From Alkalispirochaeta sp. (GTDB lineage: Bacteria > Spirochaetota > Spirochaetia > DSM-27196 > Alkalispirochaetaceae), in assembly GCA_965242725.1 (NCBI GenBank), contig CBDESZ010000016.1, positions 192,001 through 256,000 on the forward strand: 64,000 bases of DNA, read 5' to 3'. The notes under the pieces were generated by a model. That model worked only from the letters and a program-made list of their open reading frames with translations. It was not told the DNA's origin and did no database searches. This document shows, piece after piece, positions 20,769 to 30,098 of the stretch. The first letter of the stretch is position 1. Each line of letters starts with the position of its first letter. The translations under genes were made by a program, and so were the position numbers.

Positions 20769-22053
20769 ATGAGTCAAAGGGGGCACCGTCAACCACACGG
20801 ACACGTGGTCGTCGTCGGCGGTGGCGGCACCGGCGCGGCGATCATTCACGATCTCGTGTCCCGTGGTTTTACGGTGACCCTCATCGAGCGGGGTGAGTTG
20901 ACCTCCGGCACCACCGGGCGCCACCACGGTCAGCTCCATTCCGGGGCGCGCTACGCCGTCGGCGACCGTGAAATCGCCCGTGAATGCATGGAGGAGGTCC
21001 GCATACTCCGGCGCATCGCCCCCCAGGCTCTGGAAATGAACTACGGCCTCTTTGTCGCCCTCAACGAAGAGGACGACGCCTTTGCCGAGGAGTTTATTGA
21101 CTCCTGCAACGCCGCGACCATCCCTGCAAAAGAGATACCATTGGATTCGGCCTTTGCCATGGAGCCCAATCTGAACCGTTCCATTCGCCGGGCGGTACAG
21201 GTACCGGACGGAACGATAGATGCATGGCGTCTGCCCCTCCACTTCTTTGCCACCGCCCGGGCCGCCGGGGCCGATATCCGCACCTTTACCGAGCTGATCG
21301 CCGTGGAGCGGACCAACGGACGCGTCAATGGCGTACGGGTCCGGCGCCTCACCGACGGGCGGGGAATACTCTCTTCCTGCGGATGCGGTCGTCAGCGCCA
21401 CCGGCGCGTGGGCGGGAAGGGTGGCGCGATCGGCGGGAATAGAGCTCCCGGTGACGCCCGCTCCGGGGACGATGGTGGCGGTGAAACAGCGGCTGAACAA
21501 CATGGTGGTCAGCCAGCTCCACCCTCCCGGAGACGGGGACATCATCGTTCCCCAGCGGGGATTGTCAATCATCGGATCCACCCAATGGCAGACCGATGAT
21601 CCTGACGACGTGCAGGTTCCCCCCGAGGATATTTCCTACCTTCTGGGACGAGCGGCTGAAATGATTCCCGCCTTTTCGGAAACACCCTTTCACGCCGCCT
21701 GGACGGCGAGCCGCCCCCTGGCCGGAGCGGCACGGGATGTCGACGACGGACGGAAGCTGAGCCGCGACTTTCTCGCCATCGATCACGGTCGCTCCGACGG
21801 CTTGAGCGGTTTCATTTCCGTCATTGGAGGAAAGGCGACGGTCCTGCGGGCGATGGCGGAAAAAACCGTTGATATGGTGTGCGACCTTTTTGGCGTTGAA
21901 GAGCGGTGCCGGACGGCGGAGCTGCCCCTGTTGCCGCACCGGGCGATGTATACCGCCGCTGCGGGTGAGCGTGCCCGCCCGTCGGCGGCGACGGGCGACG
22001 GAACTCCCGGCGAGGCGGGTGATGCTTCGGTATGGAAGGGGGATGTCCGGTGA
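20769..22053 (+). CDS. GlpA-like FAD-dependent glycerol-3-phosphate dehydrogenase, short form; frameshifted at the G4 run 21361-21364
   Basis: VVGGGGTG, SGTTGRHHGQLHSGARYAV, AREC; second frame AVVSATGAWA, DGDIIVP, SRDF, GGKAT, CRTAELPL. Removing one G gives ...LTDG-R-EYSLPADAVV. Confidence 0.85.
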
Positions 22054-22971: not shown

Positions 22972-24399
22972 CTACAGCTTATCCACCAGCATTGAACATT
23001 TGCCCGACGGTATGGGCAATGTTTTTTCCTTCTTTTCACTCAGGAGATCGAGGGTAAAGTAGTACAGCTTTTCCGATTCATGCCGGATTTCCCAGCCGCG
23101 GCCGCTCTTCTGACTGAGGATGGTGATGGTGTTGCGTCGGAGGTTGAGGTTTTCAATCCCCATGATTTCCAGGGTGGGGACGATCCACCGCACCGTCTTG
23201 CGAGGCAGGCTCACTTCCAGGCCGACGACATTTTCGATCATGAGCGCGATCGTCGACAGTCCCACCGAGGGTATGTGCATTGCCCGGGGAAAGTCGGGGT
23301 TTTCCGCCCATTCCGCCTCACCGTCCCGGAGGGGTTTGTACGCTTCCCAGACGTTGCCGCGCTTGTTTCCTTCAGGGTGGAGCGTGTCCAGCATGTAGTA
23401 CAGATGGCGTATCGCAAATTCCCGGGCCAGCTCGTAGTGGTGCTGCTTTTCCAGCCCCTTTATGATCATGAATGTATAGGGAGGAAAGACCGATCCCCGC
23501 CAGCCGTCGCCGGCTTCCGAGAAACTCGGCTCATCCACGGCAACGGAGGGAAAGGGGTTTTCCGTCCCGAAACTCTGGGGGTCCTTGAGGTGCTCCACCA
23601 GCCGGCTTGATCGCGCTTCATTGGGAATGTCCGTTATCAGCGGCCAGAACCCGGCCACCGTCTTGACGGCGACCTGATCCTTGTCCTTGGTCAGGTCATA
23701 GTAAAAGCCGCTTTCATCGTTCCACATGAGCTGGTTAATCCGCGTCTTCAGGGAGAAGTACTGGCGGCGGTATCGAAACTCGATGTCCTTGTCGTTGAGG
23801 ACGTGACCGAGTTGGGCCATGCAGGAGACGTTGAGGGCCGCCTGGGTGTTGAAATCCACGGGATAGTACATGCCGTCCCGGGGAGAGTTGCTCATGCCCG
23901 TTGCGGCAAGGGGAACGTGAAAGAGTCCCGAATCATCCATGAAGTTGTCGGTGAGCCATTGGAAGTGCTTTTCCAGGATCGGCATGATCTCCTTGATGCG
24001 CTTCTTGTTGCCCACCTTGTGATACAGGTTGTACTCCGCCCACGCAAAGAGCGGCGGAGACAATCCATCCGGATTATCGTCGGAAATGATCGGTTTCCCC
24101 GTTTCAAGGGAATACTCCGAACGGACGGCGCCGTCTTCTTCCTGTTTGGCGTAAAAATTGTCCAGCAGCGGTGCGGCGGGATAGTTTCTGTTGCTGTATA
24201 CCAGGAAAAATGTAGCATTTATCGCGTCGAGCTGATTGATTCGATCGGCGTCGGGGGCGACAAAGACCCGCGGATCAAATCCGCTCTTGTCCTGGCTTTT
24301 TTGCCAGTAGTCTTTTATCCACGCCCACGTCTGCTCGTATATGTCTACAAAATCCTGATCGTAGAAGTGTATCGTTGGAAACTCTTTTTTTATTACCAC
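22972..24399 (-). CDS. MGH1/GH63/trehalase-like glycoside hydrolase
   Basis: PPLFAWAEY, GMSNSPR, MWNDESGFYYD, KTVAGFWPL, FPSVAVDEP, WRGSVFPP, WEAY motifs of the (alpha/alpha)6 family. Confidence 0.8.
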   Translation of the reverse strand: MVIKKEFPTIHFYDQDFVDIYEQTWAWIKDYWQKSQDKSGFDPRVFVAPDADRINQLDAINATFFLVYSNRNYPAAPLLDNFYAKQEEDGAVRSEYSLETGKPIISDDNPDGLSPPLFAWAEYNLYHKVGNKKRIKEIMPILEKHFQWLTDNFMDDSGLFHVPLAATGMSNSPRDGMYYPVDFNTQAALNVSCMAQLGHVLNDKDIEFRYRRQYFSLKTRINQLMWNDESGFYYDLTKDKDQVAVKTVAGFWPLITDIPNEARSSRLVEHLKDPQSFGTENPFPSVAVDEPSFSEAGDGWRGSVFPPYTFMIIKGLEKQHHYELAREFAIRHLYYMLDTLHPEGNKRGNVWEAYKPLRDGEAEWAENPDFPRAMHIPSVGLSTIALMIENVVGLEVSLPRKTVRWIVPTLEIMGIENLNLRRNTITILSQKSGRGWEIRHESEKLYYFTLDLLSEKKEKTLPIPSGKCSMLVDKL

Positions 24400-24480: not shown

Positions 24481-24509
24481 TTGACATGCTTATACCGCAC
24501 TGTCATAGT
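24481..24509 (+). promoter_or_regulatory. Putative sigma70 promoter of gatCAB-aspS
   Basis: TTGACA (24481-24486), 17 nt, TGn-extended CATAGT (24504-24509). Confidence 0.55.
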
Positions 24510-24516
24510 TCCTCCC

Positions 24517-24795
24517 ATGGACCCTTCTGAACTCAGAACCACCGTTGATATGGCGATGCTTGAGATAGACGAGCAACATATCGAGGCGCTGGAAGGTGCC
24601 CTTCGACAGATGTTGGACTATTTTACCACTATGTCGACCGTTGATGTGGAAAATGTCGAACCAACCACGCACGCGCTCCTGACGGAAAACCGTACCCGGC
24701 GTGACTACCCCGATCGGATGGTTGATCCCGATACCCTCCTTGAGAATGCCGCCGATCTGGAAGACCGGTTTCTGGCGGTCCCCAACGTATTATAA
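24517..24795 (+). CDS. gatC: Asp/Glu-tRNA amidotransferase subunit C
   Basis: MLDYFTTMSTVDVENVEPTTH, LLENAADLEDRFLAVPNVL; directly upstream of gatA. Confidence 0.9.
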   Translation: MDPSELRTTVDMAMLEIDEQHIEALEGALRQMLDYFTTMSTVDVENVEPTTHALLTENRTRRDYPDRMVDPDTLLENAADLEDRFLAVPNVL

Positions 24796-24799
24796 AGCG

Positions 24800-26275
24800 A
24801 TGTGGAAGACAATAGTTAAAACGAAACGGGAGCAGTATGTTCGCTTTCTGCAGGAGCAGGATAGTGAAACGGGCTCCTTTCTTGAAATCGGAGAGCCCCG
24901 GCGGTGGAACGTGTCTCTTTCCGCCGCGGAACAATCAGCCGACGATCGTGACCTGACGGAGGTCGTCGCGGAGGCGGGAGAATCCCTTCACCTTCCCGTG
25001 GCGGTGAAGGACAATATCGCCGTGACGGGATACCACCTGACCTGCGGCAGCCGGATGCTTGAAGAGGTGGTGAGTCCCTATACGGCGACGTCGATACGCC
25101 GCCTTGTTGCGGCGGGTGCCGCCGTGGTGGGCAAGACCAATCTTGACGAGTTCGGGATGGGCAGTTCCACCGATAACTCGGCGCTGAAAAAGACAAACAA
25201 TCCCTGGGATTATAACCGCGTTGCAGGCGGCTCCAGCGGCGGCTCCGCGGCGGCGGTTGCACAGCAGCTGGTTCCTCTGGCAGTGGGAAGCGATACCGGC
25301 GGTTCAGTGCGACAGCCCGCCGCGTTTTGCGGTGTCTACGGTCTGAAACCGACCTACGGTACGATTTCCCGCTACGGCCTGGTTGCCTATGCGTCGTCAT
25401 TGGAGGGTATCGGCCTTCTCGGTGCCGACGTATCCCTTCTCGCGCAGGCGTACCGCGTCATGGCCGCCCGGGACGATCGGGATCAGACGTCGGTGTCGCG
25501 GCCGGACGGGAGTGCCGAGGGGTCTGGAACGGCGGCGGACGCGGATACAGCGGGTGGTGCGGCCCGGGGCGGGGCCCTCAGGATCGGCGTCCTCGCCGGA
25601 GATCTGGGTCTCGATGAACCGGTGGCACGCAACTATCGCGCCACCGTGGAAGCGCTCAATGATCTGGGCCACGAGACGGCACCGGTCTCGCTCTCCACTC
25701 TGGAGTACGTCGTACCGGCGTACTACACGATCGCCGCCGCCGAGGCGGCGGCCAATCTCGCGCGATACAACGGCGTGCGCTACGGGTATCGGCCCGCCTT
25801 TTCGGAAAATCCGGAAGAGCTCATGCGCGCCGCCCGTACGGAAGCGCTGGGGGACGAGGTAAAGCTCCGTATCGTCCTGGGAACCTACGTCCTGAGAAGC
25901 GGTTTTCAGGATCAGTATTACACCCGGGCGCAGAAAATTCGCACCCTCATACGCCGTGAACTGAACGAGAAGTTCCGGGAATTTGACCTCATGGTACTGC
26001 CCACATTTCCGACCCAGGCCTTTGCTCACGGCGACAAGGGTATGGACGCCTTTCAGCAGAAGGTTGCAGACCGGTTTACCGGTACGGCCAACCTCGCGGC
26101 GATCCCGGCGCTTACCGTGCCGACGGGGCTTGAAAAGGGTCTGCCCGTGGGCATGCAGCTCATGGGACCCGCCTTCAGCGAAGAGCGTCTCTTTGCGGTA
26201 GCCGGTGCGCTGGCGAAGCGAATGCCCGTGGAATTCCCGGCAAACTCGAAGTCCTTCCAATCCTGGGAGGGCTGA
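24800..26275 (+). CDS. gatA: Asp/Glu-tRNA amidotransferase subunit A
   Basis: Amidase signature VAVKDNI, GKTNLDEFGMGSST, GGSSGGSAAAVA, GSDTGGSVRQPA; NLARYNGVRYG. Lys-Ser-Ser triad intact. Confidence 0.95.
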   Translation: MWKTIVKTKREQYVRFLQEQDSETGSFLEIGEPRRWNVSLSAAEQSADDRDLTEVVAEAGESLHLPVAVKDNIAVTGYHLTCGSRMLEEVVSPYTATSIRRLVAAGAAVVGKTNLDEFGMGSSTDNSALKKTNNPWDYNRVAGGSSGGSAAAVAQQLVPLAVGSDTGGSVRQPAAFCGVYGLKPTYGTISRYGLVAYASSLEGIGLLGADVSLLAQAYRVMAARDDRDQTSVSRPDGSAEGSGTAADADTAGGAARGGALRIGVLAGDLGLDEPVARNYRATVEALNDLGHETAPVSLSTLEYVVPAYYTIAAAEAAANLARYNGVRYGYRPAFSENPEELMRAARTEALGDEVKLRIVLGTYVLRSGFQDQYYTRAQKIRTLIRRELNEKFREFDLMVLPTFPTQAFAHGDKGMDAFQQKVADRFTGTANLAAIPALTVPTGLEKGLPVGMQLMGPAFSEERLFAVAGALAKRMPVEFPANSKSFQSWEG

Positions 26276-26391: not shown

Positions 26392-28830
26392 GTGTACCAG
26401 TCTTTTATCGGACTAGAAATCCATACCCAGTTGTTGACGGAGACAAAGGTCTTTTGTGATTGTCGCGCCAATTTCGGCGATGAACCGAACACCAATGTCT
26501 GCCCTGTATGCATGGGCTATCCAGGTGTATTGCCTGCCCTCAATGAAGAGGCGATTCGTATGGCCTATACCGTCGCCCGGGCGCTCAATTGTGATCTCAA
26601 TCCGCGCTGCCTCTTCGACCGGAAGAATTACTTCTATCCCGATCTGCCCAAGAACTACCAGATTACCCAGTTTTATGAGCCCCTCGGCCGCAACGGATAC
26701 ATCGATATCGAGTTTCACAAGAAAAAGAAGCGTGTCCGTATTCATGAGATCCACCTGGAGGAAGACGCCGGAAAGATGATCCACGCCGGGGACATGTCCC
26801 TTCTCGACTACAATCGCGCGGGAACGCCACTTCTTGAAATCGTAACGGAACCGGATCTCGAAATCGGCGACGAGGCGGAAGTCCTTCTGCAGGAGTTGCG
26901 TCGCATGGTCCGCTACCTGGGCGTCTGCGACGGTAACATGGAGGAAGGGTCCCTCCGCTGCGACGCAAACGTCTCGGTGAACCGTGCCGGCGAGGGTCTG
27001 GGAAACAAGGTCGAAATCAAAAACCTCAACAGCTCCCGCTTTGTCCGCAAGGCGCTCAACTTCGAGATTGAACGACAGGAGGAAATCCTGGAGCGGGGCG
27101 GCACGGTGACGCAGGAAACTCGATTGTGGAACGAGAACCGGGACCTCACGGAGAGCATGCGCTCAAAGGAGAGCGCCCACGATTACCGTTACTTTCCCGA
27201 GCCGGACCTCCCGCCCTTTACCGCGGACGACGCCTTCCTCGCAAAGGTTGAAGCCTCCCTTGTCGAACTCCCTGCGCCGCGGCGCGTTCGTTTTCGAAAA
27301 GACTACGGCCTCAGCACCTCCCAGGCGGAGTTTATATGCGACGAGAAAAGCACCGCCGACTTCTTTGAGGCCGCCGTGGAAGAGGGCGCCGATGGTGAAC
27401 AGCTTGCGATCTGGCTCGCCGGGGATGTGCGAAAACAGCTGAACCGCAGCGGCGTTACGCTGCAGGAGAGCCCCCTCACCCCCTCACGCATGGCCTCTCT
27501 TCTCAAGATGCTCGACGGCGGCGTGATCCACGGAAAGATCGCCAAACAGGTCCTTTCCATGATCTTTGTGGAGGACAAGGACCCCGACCGTATTATTTCG
27601 GAGCAGGGATGGGAGCAGATCACCGATCCCGCCGAGCTCACGGAGGTGTTGCGGGACGTATTGGCCGCCCACCCCCAGGCGGAGAATCAGATCCGTGAGG
27701 GAGACCGCAAACCCTGGGGTTTTCTGGTGGGACAGATCATGCAGGCCACCAGCGGCCGCGCGGAACCGTCCCTGGTCCAGAAGATTCTCCAGGATCACTT
27801 TACCGTCAGTACCATCGACGTTTTTTCCTTCGGCGGCGCCATCGCCGGTCACCGGGAGGAAAACGGCCTTGTCGTTCCGGGAGACCTGAAGAACGTCAGG
27901 GAACTGCTGCAGCAGGATCCGGCGCTGCCGGGAGGGCTCAGTTTTGAGGAAATCCAGCTCGGACGCTTTCTCAGTGAGGAGATCACCCCCGCCGACTGGG
28001 CCGCCCTTGTCGCCCGGACCGCCCAACGGCTCGAGACGGGGGAGAGCCGGGGCATCGTCATCGGCCACGGGACCGATACCCTCACATATACGGCCAGCCT
28101 CCTGTACTGGTTTTTTGCGGACGCGAGGATTCCCATCGTTCTGACCGCCAGCGCCGTTCCCACCGGGGACGGGAGCCGCGGCGAGGGCGTTGAAAACCTC
28201 CGGCGCGCCGTGGCGACCGCCGCGGGAACGGATCGGGGTATACATGTAGTCTACGGCAGCGACGACTACCTGCCGCTGAATCTGAAATTCGAGCGCGCCG
28301 GGAGCAGCGACGTCTACGTCGGCGCCTTCCGGAACTGGAACACTCAGCGTCTTACGAGAAGCGGTCACGCCCTTGCCTCCTCCGCCCGCTCCCTGAATAA
28401 GGAGAAGCTCGTCGAACTCTTGGAGACGGCGATAGGCCGTACCTTCATCGCCAAGGTCTATCCGGGAATGCGGGGAGAGACGCTGATCGCCCTTATGGAC
28501 GCGGGAATTCGCTACTTTGTTCTGGAAATATACGATACGGGAACGGCCAATTTGAGGGAGACGCCCTTCTCCCTGAAAAAGGCACTGACGGAAGGACGGG
28601 AACGGGGCGTTTCCTTCTTTTGCACCTCCCAGCAGGAGGGGGTTGTCGACTTTTCCGAGTATGTGACGGCCCATCAGCTCTGGCGGGAAGGAGCCATTCC
28701 GATGGGAGCCCTGACCACCGAGACGGCATGGACACGCCTCGTCGCCGCCCAGGTTGAGGCGATGGCGGGGGAGTATGAAGGGCAGACAATTGAAGAGACG
28801 GTACTGCAGTTAATGGAGGACGGACAATGA
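26392..28830 (+). CDS. gatB: GatB fused to a C-terminal type-I asparaginase/GatD-like domain (812 aa)
   Basis: aa 1-~470 GatB (IGLEIH, CPVCMGYPG, FDRKNYFYPDLPK, HLEEDAGK, NRAGTPLLEIV, RCDANVS, EIKNLNS, YRYFPEPDL, GFLVGQIMQATSGRA). aa ~475-812 asparaginase fold (FGGAIAG, LSEEITPADW, GHGTDTLTYTA, PIVLTAS, KVYPG, TSQ, GALTTETAWTRL). Confidence 0.92.
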   Translation: MYQSFIGLEIHTQLLTETKVFCDCRANFGDEPNTNVCPVCMGYPGVLPALNEEAIRMAYTVARALNCDLNPRCLFDRKNYFYPDLPKNYQITQFYEPLGRNGYIDIEFHKKKKRVRIHEIHLEEDAGKMIHAGDMSLLDYNRAGTPLLEIVTEPDLEIGDEAEVLLQELRRMVRYLGVCDGNMEEGSLRCDANVSVNRAGEGLGNKVEIKNLNSSRFVRKALNFEIERQEEILERGGTVTQETRLWNENRDLTESMRSKESAHDYRYFPEPDLPPFTADDAFLAKVEASLVELPAPRRVRFRKDYGLSTSQAEFICDEKSTADFFEAAVEEGADGEQLAIWLAGDVRKQLNRSGVTLQESPLTPSRMASLLKMLDGGVIHGKIAKQVLSMIFVEDKDPDRIISEQGWEQITDPAELTEVLRDVLAAHPQAENQIREGDRKPWGFLVGQIMQATSGRAEPSLVQKILQDHFTVSTIDVFSFGGAIAGHREENGLVVPGDLKNVRELLQQDPALPGGLSFEEIQLGRFLSEEITPADWAALVARTAQRLETGESRGIVIGHGTDTLTYTASLLYWFFADARIPIVLTASAVPTGDGSRGEGVENLRRAVATAAGTDRGIHVVYGSDDYLPLNLKFERAGSSDVYVGAFRNWNTQRLTRSGHALASSARSLNKEKLVELLETAIGRTFIAKVYPGMRGETLIALMDAGIRYFVLEIYDTGTANLRETPFSLKKALTEGRERGVSFFCTSQQEGVVDFSEYVTAHQLWREGAIPMGALTTETAWTRLVAAQVEAMAGEYEGQTIEETVLQLMEDGQ

Positions 28831-30098
28831 GAGTGTTGGCGCGGGACGTGGCGGCCCGGGAGGGAACGGAAGTAACGGTATCGGGATGGGTTCACCGCAT
28901 TCGCAATCTCGGAGGTATCAGTTTTGTGATGCTTCGCGACCGGAGCGGTCTCGTCCAGGTCGTCTACGAGAGCGAGCCGGAATTTGGCCACGAGACGGTT
29001 ATCTCCGTCACGGGGAGCGTTGCGGCCAATGAAAAGGCGGAGGGCGGCTTTGAGATTCACGCCTCCTCGACGGAGATTCTCGGTTCCGTTGAGGCTGACC
29101 TTCCCGTGGCGGTGAATCAGGACCTGGGAAAGCTCGGCATCGATGCGCTGCTGGACAACAGACTGGTGACCCTGCGGAACCCTCGGGTTCGACATATATT
29201 TGAACTGCAGGCGGGAATTCTGAAGTACTTCGCCGAATGGCTGCGGGGCGAAGGCTTTACGGAAATAAAGTCGTCCAAAATCATCGGATCCGGTACGGAG
29301 GGGGGGACGGGCCTCTTTTCCGTGGACTACTTCGGCGAGACCGTCTTTCTTGCGCAGAGCCCCCAGTTTTACAAGCAGGCGATGGTGGCCTCCGGCCTGG
29401 AGCGCGTCTTTGAGATCGGCGCCGCTTATCGGGCGGAGAAGCACGACACGCCGCGGCACCTCAATGAGTACGTCTCCCTCGATGTGGAAATGGGCTTTAT
29501 CGAGAGCGAGGCGGACCTGATGGACCTCGAAGTGGGACTGCTGGGCCACATCTTTGAGAGCGTGGCCCGCGATTTCGGATACGTTCTTGAGGAGTACGGC
29601 GTTTCCGTACCGACCGCTGAGGAGATGCGGAAGACGCCCCGTATCAGCCACGACGACGCCAAGAAGATCATCAAGGAGCGGACGGGGAAGAGCGCCTTTG
29701 AGATCAATCCCGAGGGCGAGCGGGAGCTCTGCGACTGGGCCCTTGAGGAGCACGGTGTGGACGCCGTCTTCGTCTTCGCCTTTCCCCGGAAGAAACGGCC
29801 TTTTTACACCTTTCCAGAAGGTCTCAAGACGCGGAGCTTCGATCTTCTCTTTCGGGGGCTTGAAATTACGACGGGAGGGCAGCGTATCCACGACTACCGG
29901 ACCCTGCTTGAGACGCTGCCCAAGTTCGGCCTTACCGAGGAGGGACTTGGTGACTACTGCTCTATTTTCAAGTTCGGGTGTCCCCCCCACGGCGGATTTG
30001 CAATCGGTCTCGAACGAATCACCCAGAAAATTCTCGGCCTGCAGAACGTGAAGGAGGCGTCCCTCTTTCCGCGGGACCGGAAGCGCACGCGGCCATAG
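28827..30098 (+). CDS. aspS: Short archaeal-type aspartyl-tRNA synthetase, probably non-discriminating Asp/Asn
   Basis: 423 aa with no GAD domain; GWVHRIRNLGG, LAQSPQFYKQ, RAEKHDTPRHLNEY, FDLLFRGLEITTGGQRIH, PPHGGFAIGLER, LFPRD; ATGA overlap with gatB. Confidence 0.93.
   Translation: MRVLARDVAAREGTEVTVSGWVHRIRNLGGISFVMLRDRSGLVQVVYESEPEFGHETVISVTGSVAANEKAEGGFEIHASSTEILGSVEADLPVAVNQDLGKLGIDALLDNRLVTLRNPRVRHIFELQAGILKYFAEWLRGEGFTEIKSSKIIGSGTEGGTGLFSVDYFGETVFLAQSPQFYKQAMVASGLERVFEIGAAYRAEKHDTPRHLNEYVSLDVEMGFIESEADLMDLEVGLLGHIFESVARDFGYVLEEYGVSVPTAEEMRKTPRISHDDAKKIIKERTGKSAFEINPEGERELCDWALEEHGVDAVFVFAFPRKKRPFYTFPEGLKTRSFDLLFRGLEITTGGQRIHDYRTLLETLPKFGLTEEGLGDYCSIFKFGCPPHGGFAIGLERITQKILGLQNVKEASLFPRDRKRTRP

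What the first reader, a model, noticed from the sequence alone, without database searches (positions are those of the whole stretch)
26392..28830. GatB fused to a full asparaginase/GatD-like domain: a hybrid GatCAB/GatDE-type tRNA amidotransferase
Seen: one open frame of 812 aa. A complete GatB ends near aa 470 and continues in frame into ~340 aa with both subdomains of a type-I L-asparaginase: FGGAIAG (A483), LSEEITPADW, GHGTDT (T561/D562), a Lys at 632, KVYPG...GTA...TSQ...GALTTETAWTRL. Motif spacing (78 and 71 aa) fits the family. Established: bacterial GatB is ~480 aa and gets ammonia from the amidase GatA; archaeal GatDE uses an asparaginase-like subunit (GatD) instead. Here GatA is also present with its Lys-Ser-Ser triad intact. 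The LSEE(I)TP..W segment looks more like GatD (LSENM.P..W) than AnsA (DSS.M.P..W). The first catalytic Thr of the GGT motif is Ala (GCC at 27838-27840), while the second Thr, the Asp and the Lys are kept. Inference: the domain is either a second ammonia donor, or more likely a disabled Asn/Gln/Asp-binding or oligomerising module that couples transamidation to amino-acid or nitrogen status, or scaffolds the adjacent AspRS.
Basis: partly seen in the sequence, partly recalled or inferred. Interest (0 to 1): 0.82.

Follow-up and report, generated by a model that had tools for sequence, protein, structure and literature searches.

The report
GatB carrying a disarmed asparaginase sensor
Many free-living spirochaetes have joined GatB, the enzyme subunit that makes asparagine on its tRNA, to an asparaginase-shaped domain that lacks two catalytic residues but keeps its amino-acid pocket, so the domain likely binds an amino acid and tunes the enzyme instead of supplying ammonia.

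Summary
The fusion is real: one 812-aa frame with intact GatB (aa 1-470) and a full asparaginase fold (aa 473-790). It is conserved across Spirochaetia (46 of 301 sampled genomes) in a gatC-gatA-gatB::domain-aspS2 operon, with dN/dS about 0.1.

The 'hybrid GatCAB/GatDE' reading fails. The nucleophile Thr is Ala (110 of 114). The catalytic Lys is also gone: it aligns to Phe633, not Lys632. GatA is intact. The domain groups with stand-alone 'SE-motif' asparaginases, with GatD as a cousin.

The pocket residues are near-invariant. Sister operons have lost the domain repeatedly, so it is accessory. This genome, and 37 of 44 other carriers, have both AsnRS and GlnRS, so the operon likely serves Asn biosynthesis. 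Best reading (0.45): an Asn/Asp/Gln-binding dimer module that regulates this route; untested.

A treponemal paralogue keeps the domain, has no gatA or aspS2 beside it, and has a GatB active site rebuilt with invariant Arg/Lys. No paper was found in 7 targeted searches. This scan noted the fusion before on other DNA (7 reports, plus 1 on the paralogue).

The parts
26392..27801 (+). GatB moiety (aa 1-470): catalytic cradle, helical domain, YqeY tail; catalytic residues intact (H11, E124, E149)
   Evidence: Pfam PF02934 and PF02637; TIGR00133 556 bits against cut-off 314.8; residue table
27802..28830 (+). Asparaginase-fold domain (aa 471-812), joined by about 3 residues to the last YqeY helix
   Evidence: PF00710 475-621, PF17763 685-786; model pLDDT 84.5, pTM 0.89; VIA Z 30, rmsd 2.4 over 302 residues to E. 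coli AnsA 2p2d; helix 459-469 then strand 473-479
27838..27840 (+). Ala483, in place of the nucleophile Thr (E. coli AnsA T14)
   Evidence: Ala in 110 of 114 live-GatB fusions
27973..27978 (+). Ser528-Glu529, equivalent to AnsA S60/S61 of the substrate pocket; invariant in 114 of 114
28072..28077 (+). Thr561-Asp562 (AnsA T91/D92); T 113 of 114, D 114 of 114
28285..28290 (+). Lys632-Phe633: Phe633 replaces the catalytic Lys (AnsA K163); Lys632 sits at AnsA T162, where GatD has Arg
24481..24795 (+). gatC (start may be the ATG at 24517)
   Evidence: TIGR00135 over cut-off
24800..26275 (+). gatA, amidase with Lys-Ser-Ser triad motifs intact (ORF finder start 24701; likely ATG 24800)
   Evidence: PF01425; TIGR00132 best match at 467.7 bits, just under its 481.1 cut-off; motifs
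28827..30098 (+). aspS2, archaeal-type non-discriminating AspRS; start overlaps the fusion's stop (ATGA)
   Evidence: TIGR00458 382 bits against 368.4; PRK05159 over cut-off
22972..24399 (-). Divergent GH63/MGH1-like gene; conserved neighbour, probably ancestral synteny only
   Evidence: PF22422; found in 52 of 52 Spirochaetia genomes tested, with or without the fusion

Best explanation
This gene encodes a GatB with intact catalytic residues fused to an asparaginase-fold domain that lacks its nucleophile Thr and catalytic Lys, and that domain likely works as an amino-acid-binding (most likely Asn), probably dimer-forming module that tunes tRNA-dependent asparagine synthesis rather than as an ammonia donor. 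Step 1 (genes shown, chemistry from established knowledge): AspRS2 puts Asp on tRNA(Asn), GatA releases ammonia from Gln or Asn, and GatB amidates. Step 2 (shown): this genome also has AsnRS, GlnRS and AsnA, so the route is not needed for translation as such and is inferred to be an Asn-supply route. Step 3 (inferred): the domain keeps the pocket that holds the amino-acid backbone but cannot cleave, like laboratory Thr-to-Ala trap mutants. Step 4 (inferred): it dimerises as type I asparaginases do, linking two GatCAB through their tRNA-gripping YqeY tails, and ligand occupancy changes tail freedom or complex assembly so that the ATP- and Gln-consuming route is damped when Asn is plentiful.
For: T14->A483 and K163->F633 against E. 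coli AnsA, while all 19 Sa, 13 Sb, 11 GatD and 16 type I rows keep the Thr. In 114 live-GatB fusions: A483 110, S528/E529/G560/D562/T718 114 each, T561 113; a near-fixed Ala suggests selection against catalysis rather than drift (inference). Domain dN/dS 0.04-0.11 in 8 pairs, like GatB. PDB titles show Asn-bound T13A and T19A mutants of the same fold (equivalence to the GGT threonine inferred from numbering). Accessory: unfused GatB in the same operon ends at the junction and interleaves with fused ones, 8 changes on the tree and at least 4 forced. Redundant route: of 44 other carriers, AsnRS in 42, GlnRS in 38, both in 37; neither AsnA nor AsnB found in 20 of 44. tRNA(Asn) has U1-A72. PMC2330236 (passages read) describes this arrangement as the Asn route of Thermus and Deinococcus. 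In 17 dead-GatB paralogues the pocket is less strictly kept (A483 10, T561 13).
Against: No binding, oligomer or activity data exist. The ligand is not identified, and the substrate of the stand-alone parent family is unknown. Four distant live-GatB fusions have Leu at T561. The domain is as well kept as GatB or better in the paralogue that has no working GatB (52% against 39-48% mean identity in 13 sequences), which points to a role not tied to transamidation. Keeping the domain does not follow AsnA: 19 of 44 carriers against 6 of 17 hand-picked genomes with an unfused operon. The full-length model gives no fixed placement of the domain on GatB (pTM 0.58), so no allosteric path is shown.
Confidence: 0.45

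Rival explanations
1. Ligand-blind scaffold: the domain only dimerises or stabilises GatCAB (or the transamidosome with AspRS2), and the pocket is kept for folding.
For: Both catalytic residues lost. C-terminal subdomain motifs as invariant as the pocket. Leu at T561 in 4 distant fusions. aspS2 follows directly in 74 of 80 loci.
Against: T561/D562/S528/E529 are near-invariant and 483 is nearly fixed as Ala. The operon persists without the domain in many sister genomes. The domain is kept where gatA and aspS2 are not adjacent.
Confidence: 0.25
2. The tRNA-binding GatB body plus the amino-acid pocket form a sensor with an outside partner (reading tRNA charging or amino-acid status), a second job of the protein that the dead-GatB paralogue has specialised in.
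For: Form II (17 sequences) has H11R, H121R, E149R, D191N, E208K, K210R nearly invariant, a rebuilt basic pocket rather than random decay. It is nested in form I, stays at the ancestral locus, and coexists with a live GatB in G001, G002, G003, G276, G300, G282, G291 and G105.
Against: No output domain and no specific partner gene found; the GH63-like neighbour is in 52 of 52 genomes. Form II is frameshifted in G105 and its pocket drifts. Form II may have gained its job after the duplication.
Confidence: 0.17
3. The domain has a changed catalytic activity that uses T561/D562 alone, for example slow hydrolysis of mischarged Asp-tRNA(Asn) or of another ester or amide.
For: T561/D562 kept. It is tethered to the tRNA-binding tail. 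PMC6667453 (passages read) says the asparaginase mechanism is still debated.
Against: The Lys of the Thr-Lys-Asp triad is replaced by Phe, so both proposed mechanisms lose a needed group. The fusion point is at the tRNA-elbow end, away from the CCA end (YqeY binds the D-loop, PMC2330236).
Confidence: 0.08
4. Hybrid GatCAB/GatDE: the domain is a second ammonia donor for GatB.
For: Asparaginase fold; GatD, the stand-alone SE family and the fused domain group together against classical type I enzymes (99/95). 2 of 114 live-GatB fusions have Thr at 483.
Against: Nucleophile and Lys lost. GatA's central motif is kept in 66 of 72 neighbouring GatA frames, the other 6 being cut short. Where gatA is not adjacent, GatB is dead too. 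No GatD N-terminal domain.
Confidence: 0.05

Closest known systems
Bacterial GatCAB with archaeal-type ND-AspRS as an Asn-biosynthesis route (Thermus thermophilus, Deinococcus radiodurans; PMC2330236, PMC4206432, passages read)
   Same: GatC, intact GatA, intact GatB, second archaeal-type AspRS, coexisting AsnRS and GlnRS, tRNA(Asn) U1-A72
   Different: GatB carries a 340-aa C-terminal asparaginase-fold domain; the four genes form one operon; AsnA is also present in this genome and in 19 of 44 other carriers
Archaeal GatDE (GatD subunit; PDB 1zq1, 2d6f)
   Same: An asparaginase fold associated with a GatB-family kinase; SE motif; basic residue before the catalytic Lys position
   Different: GatD is a separate, active subunit with Thr nucleophile, Thr-Lys-Asp triad and an N-terminal domain. 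Here the fold is fused after YqeY, lacks Thr and Lys, and GatA is kept
Type I L-asparaginases (E. coli AnsA 2p2d; P. furiosus 4q0m) and Thr-to-Ala trap mutants (Blasnase T13A 7c8x; guinea pig T19A 5dnc)
   Same: Whole two-subdomain fold (Z 30, rmsd 2.4); pocket residues equivalent to S60, T91, D92
   Different: T14 and K163 lost naturally; fused; 96-100 bits against the TIGR00519 cut-off of 260.5
Stand-alone SE-motif 'asparaginases' of Paenibacillus, Desulfuribacillus, Methanolobus and Endomicrobiaceae (P0218, P0226, P0360, P0392)
   Same: Nearest non-fused relatives; share the SE motif and the G-T motif at 717-718
   Different: All 32 aligned keep the Thr; 14 of 19 of one subgroup keep the Lys; not fused; no study of them was looked for or seen

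Membership tests
GatB (GatCAB subunit B) | GatB_N plus YqeY domains over family cut-off | tested here: met
   TIGR00133 556 against 314.8; PF02934, PF02637
GatB (GatCAB subunit B) | Mg-binding His/Glu/Glu and GatA-contact motifs intact | tested here: met
   H11, E124, E149, Y80/Y82, D264/R266 present. Role of His/Glu/Glu from PMC2330236 for GatE; mapping to GatB numbering and the GatA-contact role are recalled
GatB (GatCAB subunit B) | GatC and an active GatA encoded alongside | tested here: met
   GatA next door in 72 of 80 loci
GatB (GatCAB subunit B) | [quoted passage not shown] | not testable with these tools
   needs an assay
GatD (GatDE subunit D) | Score over the GatD family cut-off | tested here: not met
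   94.9 against 324 (TIGR02153); 94.6 against 310 (PRK04183)
GatD (GatDE subunit D) | N-terminal GatD domain (PF18195) | tested here: not met
   not among the 4 Pfam hits at E<=0.01; present in the true GatD hits
GatD (GatDE subunit D) | Thr nucleophile plus Thr-Lys-Asp triad (PMC2330236) | tested here: not met
   A483 and F633
GatD (GatDE subunit D) | Branches within the GatD clade | tested here: not met
   Fused clade joins stand-alone SE enzymes at 100/98 and excludes 6 GatD; GatD sample narrow (named ones are Bathyarchaeia), fused stem long (1.6), no AU test run
Type I L-asparaginase | Two-subdomain asparaginase fold | tested here: met
Type I L-asparaginase | Catalytic T14, T91, D92, K163 (E. 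coli AnsA numbering) | tested here: not met
   T91 and D92 kept; T14 and K163 lost. The role of K163 is recalled; one search supports T14
Type I L-asparaginase | Intimate homodimer completing the pocket | not tested
Archaeal-type non-discriminating AspRS (neighbour) | Score over the ND-AspRS cut-off | tested here: met
   382 against 368.4
Archaeal-type non-discriminating AspRS (neighbour) | His and Pro relaxed-anticodon signature (recalled from Deinococcus AspRS2) | tested here: inconclusive
   His present in 74 of 74 locus copies; Pro in most of them, but Glu in the window's copy

The most novel reading that the evidence does not exclude
Spirochaetia evolved an asparagine sensor from a disarmed asparaginase and attached it to GatB, giving feedback control of tRNA-dependent amino-acid synthesis. 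A treponemal duplicate then turned the whole protein into a double pseudo-enzyme, an Arg/Lys-lined tRNA- or nucleotide-binding GatB joined to an amino-acid pocket, that reports tRNA charging or nitrogen status.
Probability: 0.25. Interest if true: 0.8.

Novelty: new variant of a known kind. Interest (0 to 1): 0.55.

Why it matters
How the indirect Asn-tRNA route is tied to nitrogen metabolism, and why it is kept beside AsnRS, is named as an open question in PMC2330236. This family makes it testable with natural controls: fused, cleanly unfused and dead-GatB versions of one locus, with cultured carriers (Alkalispirochaeta). A conserved asparaginase pseudo-enzyme acting as a sensor would also be a new use of a well-studied fold. 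Databases mostly label these proteins plain 'GatB'. If the domain is only a scaffold, the finding is a modest architectural variant.

Tried and rejected
Assembly artefact: rejected.

K632 as the catalytic Lys: rejected.

Recent foreign insertion: GC3 of the domain 0.75 against 0.72 (GatB), 0.71 (gatA) and 0.74 (aspS2), so no sign.

Specific link to the GH63-like neighbour: rejected, present in 52 of 52 genomes.

Link between keeping the domain and lacking AsnA: none seen, 19 of 44 against 6 of 17 (small, related, hand-picked sets).

A stand-alone close copy of the domain: the shorter-protein search gave 76 hits; the strong ones look like fragments of fusions (most on short contigs, not checked one by one), plus one distant stand-alone enzyme.

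Full-length fold: both parts confident, relative placement undefined. Expression: no RNA holder listed.

My first form I/II split misfiled 4 sequences and was corrected. The regional identities quoted use the first split (118/13/4).

Literature: seven searches aimed at the fusion or at an inactive asparaginase sensor gave no paper on it; one search returned only the general review. The library lacks most subscription journals, and no supplements were read.

Full report
Observation. Window 26392-28830 is one frame of 812 aa. Pfam finds GatB_N (5-282), GatB_Yqey (323-468), Asparaginase (475-621) and Asparaginase_C (685-786), all over cut-off. The gene lies in gatC-gatA-gatB::domain-aspS2. GatA has its triad motifs, and the AspRS is of the archaeal non-discriminating type and overlaps the stop codon. 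A model of the domain is confident (pLDDT 84.5) and matches type I asparaginases over its whole length (Z 30, rmsd 2.4 to E. coli AnsA). In a full-length model about three residues separate the last YqeY helix from the domain's first strand, and no fixed docking is predicted (pTM 0.58).

Spread. A search with aa 470-812 gave 552 proteins; all of the best 120 listed carry GatB and asparaginase domains together, and the named ones are spirochaetes. Of 80 GTDB loci kept (of 111 found), 77 have both parts in one frame, 72 have gatA upstream and 74 have aspS2 downstream. In an even draw of 301 genomes of the class, 46 including this one carry the domain at E<1e-50. A profile search also found distant fusions with intact GatB motifs; one partial protein that groups with them is named from a Candidatus Wallbacteria bacterium. 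The domain is under purifying selection like GatB itself (dN/dS 0.04-0.11 in 8 pairs). An assembly artefact is excluded.

Active site. Aligned to E. coli AnsA (fetched), T14 is A483, S60/S61 are S528/E529, T91/D92 are T561/D562, T162 is K632, K163 is F633 and N246 is T718. Among 114 fusions with a live GatB, position 483 is Ala in 110, Ser in 2 and Thr in 2; position 633 is Phe in 110, Tyr in 3 and Leu in 1; S528, E529, G560, D562 and T718 are invariant and T561 is kept in 113. PMC2330236 (passages read) states that GatD needs a Thr nucleophile and a Thr-Lys-Asp triad. PMC6667453 (passages) discusses T14 as the nucleophile and notes that the mechanism is debated. PDB titles of T13A and T19A mutants with Asn bound show that such enzymes can still hold substrate; that these are the same threonine is inferred from numbering.

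Origin. The nearest non-fused relatives are stand-alone 310-390-aa proteins with the same SE motif and an intact Thr, named asparaginase in Paenibacillus, Desulfuribacillus, Methanolobus and Endomicrobiaceae. In a 43-row IQ-TREE tree the 13 fused domains form one clade (100/100) that joins these stand-alone proteins (100/98). The six GatD rows lie outside it, and all of these together are separated from seven classical type I enzymes (99/95) (rows chosen by hand from 98). GatD is therefore a cousin, not the parent. The GatD sample is narrow and the fused stem is long.

What the operon is for. This genome (91.8% complete) also has AsnRS, GlnRS, a bacterial AspRS, AsnA, an AsnB-like gene next to a putative glycosyltransferase, and a short 165-aa asparaginase. 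Of 44 other carriers, 42 have AsnRS, 38 GlnRS and 37 both; 19 have AsnA, 9 an AsnB-like match, and 20 neither (draft genomes, so 'not found'). tRNA(Asn) has the U1-A72 pair. This is the Thermus/Deinococcus pattern, in which GatCAB plus a second AspRS makes Asn (PMC2330236, PMC4206432; passages). A route that duplicates AsnRS and spends ATP and Gln is one that would gain from an Asn brake (inference).

The domain is accessory. In 15 hand-picked genomes (L114-L128) gatC-gatA-gatB-aspS is kept while GatB ends at the junction; 8 of these stretches also show the divergent GH63-like gene. On a GatB tree, fused and unfused copies interleave: 8 changes, at least 4 forced by starred branches (quick tree, one GatE-like stray row L132 included). 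Since the domains form a single clade, repeated loss is the simpler reading. Keeping the domain does not follow AsnA (19 of 44 against 6 of 17).

A second form. In treponemal genomes a paralogue sits at the ancestral locus without gatC, gatA or aspS2 beside it. Its GatB part has lost the tunnel and GatA-contact motifs and has H11R (16 of 17), H121R (17), E149R (16), D191N (17, the classing residue), E208K (17) and K210R (17): a basic pocket, not random decay. It is nested within the live form on a long branch. Eight genomes hold it beside a live GatB. In G270 and G258 it was the only GatB-like match, though G270 has 16 kb withheld and G258 is a draft. Its asparaginase domain is kept at 52% mean identity (13 sequences), with more drift in the pocket. 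This argues against the ammonia-donor idea, since where gatA is not adjacent GatB is dead too, and it shows that the domain has value apart from AspRS2.

Mechanism. Shown: the architecture, loss of two catalytic residues, a conserved pocket, dispensability, and redundancy with AsnRS/GlnRS. Inferred: amino-acid binding, dimerisation and feedback on transamidation (0.45). Rivals: ligand-blind scaffold (0.25), sensor with an outside partner (0.17), changed catalysis (0.08), second ammonia donor (0.05).

Novelty. Seven searches of the paper library aimed at this fusion or at an inactive asparaginase sensor found no study of it; most subscription papers are outside that library. Databases hold the proteins, mostly named GatB. 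Earlier agents of this scan reported the live form on seven other genomes and the dead-GatB form once; I read those notes after reaching my own reading, and they are not independent support. Verdict: a real, conserved and apparently unstudied variant of GatCAB; the hybrid GatDE title is not supported. Interest 0.55.

Noticed in passing
window 22972-24399 (-): GH63/MGH1-like gene found in 52 of 52 Spirochaetia genomes tested (44-76% identity). The position that is usually the catalytic Asp (motif recalled) is Asp in only 8 of 71 copies and Ser here: possibly a core spirochaete pseudo-glycosidase.
   Followed up: partly
L047:4597-6981, L071:685-3081, L075:1028-3424, L102, L103, L105-L108: Form II paralogue: GatB active site rebuilt with near-invariant Arg/Lys, asparaginase domain kept, no gatCA/aspS2 beside it; frameshifted in L109.
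   Followed up: partly
L082:1483-1980 (G000:C13): A 165-aa asparaginase with only the N-terminal subdomain and intact GGT and HGTDT motifs.
   Followed up: no
G000:C3:142678-144510 (-): The bacterial AspRS has His in its RDHG motif, recalled as a non-discriminating signature, so both AspRSs may charge tRNA(Asn).
   Followed up: no
window 28827-30098: This AspRS2 has Glu where most locus copies have Pro in the anticodon-domain loop; its specificity may differ.
   Followed up: no
P0218, P0222, P0226, P0197: A stand-alone asparaginase subgroup (named members are Firmicutes) keeps the Thr but mostly lacks the catalytic Lys, and has Ser for the second Thr in 5 of 13: substrate unknown.
   Followed up: partly
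G413, G449, G463, G475, G481, G493, G498, G508, G513, G523, G528, G557: These genomes carry a shorter, lower-scoring AsnRS (465-489 bits against about 580-670 in the rest), perhaps a replaced type.
   Followed up: no
L132 (G311:C89): A weak GatB_N match in a 689-aa frame whose sequence continues unlike GatB, perhaps GatE-like or a contaminant.
   Followed up: no
window 20769-22053: An FAD-dependent oxidoreductase-like gene is split over two overlapping frames (20769-21599 and 21328-22053): possible frameshift (family judged by eye).
   Followed up: no
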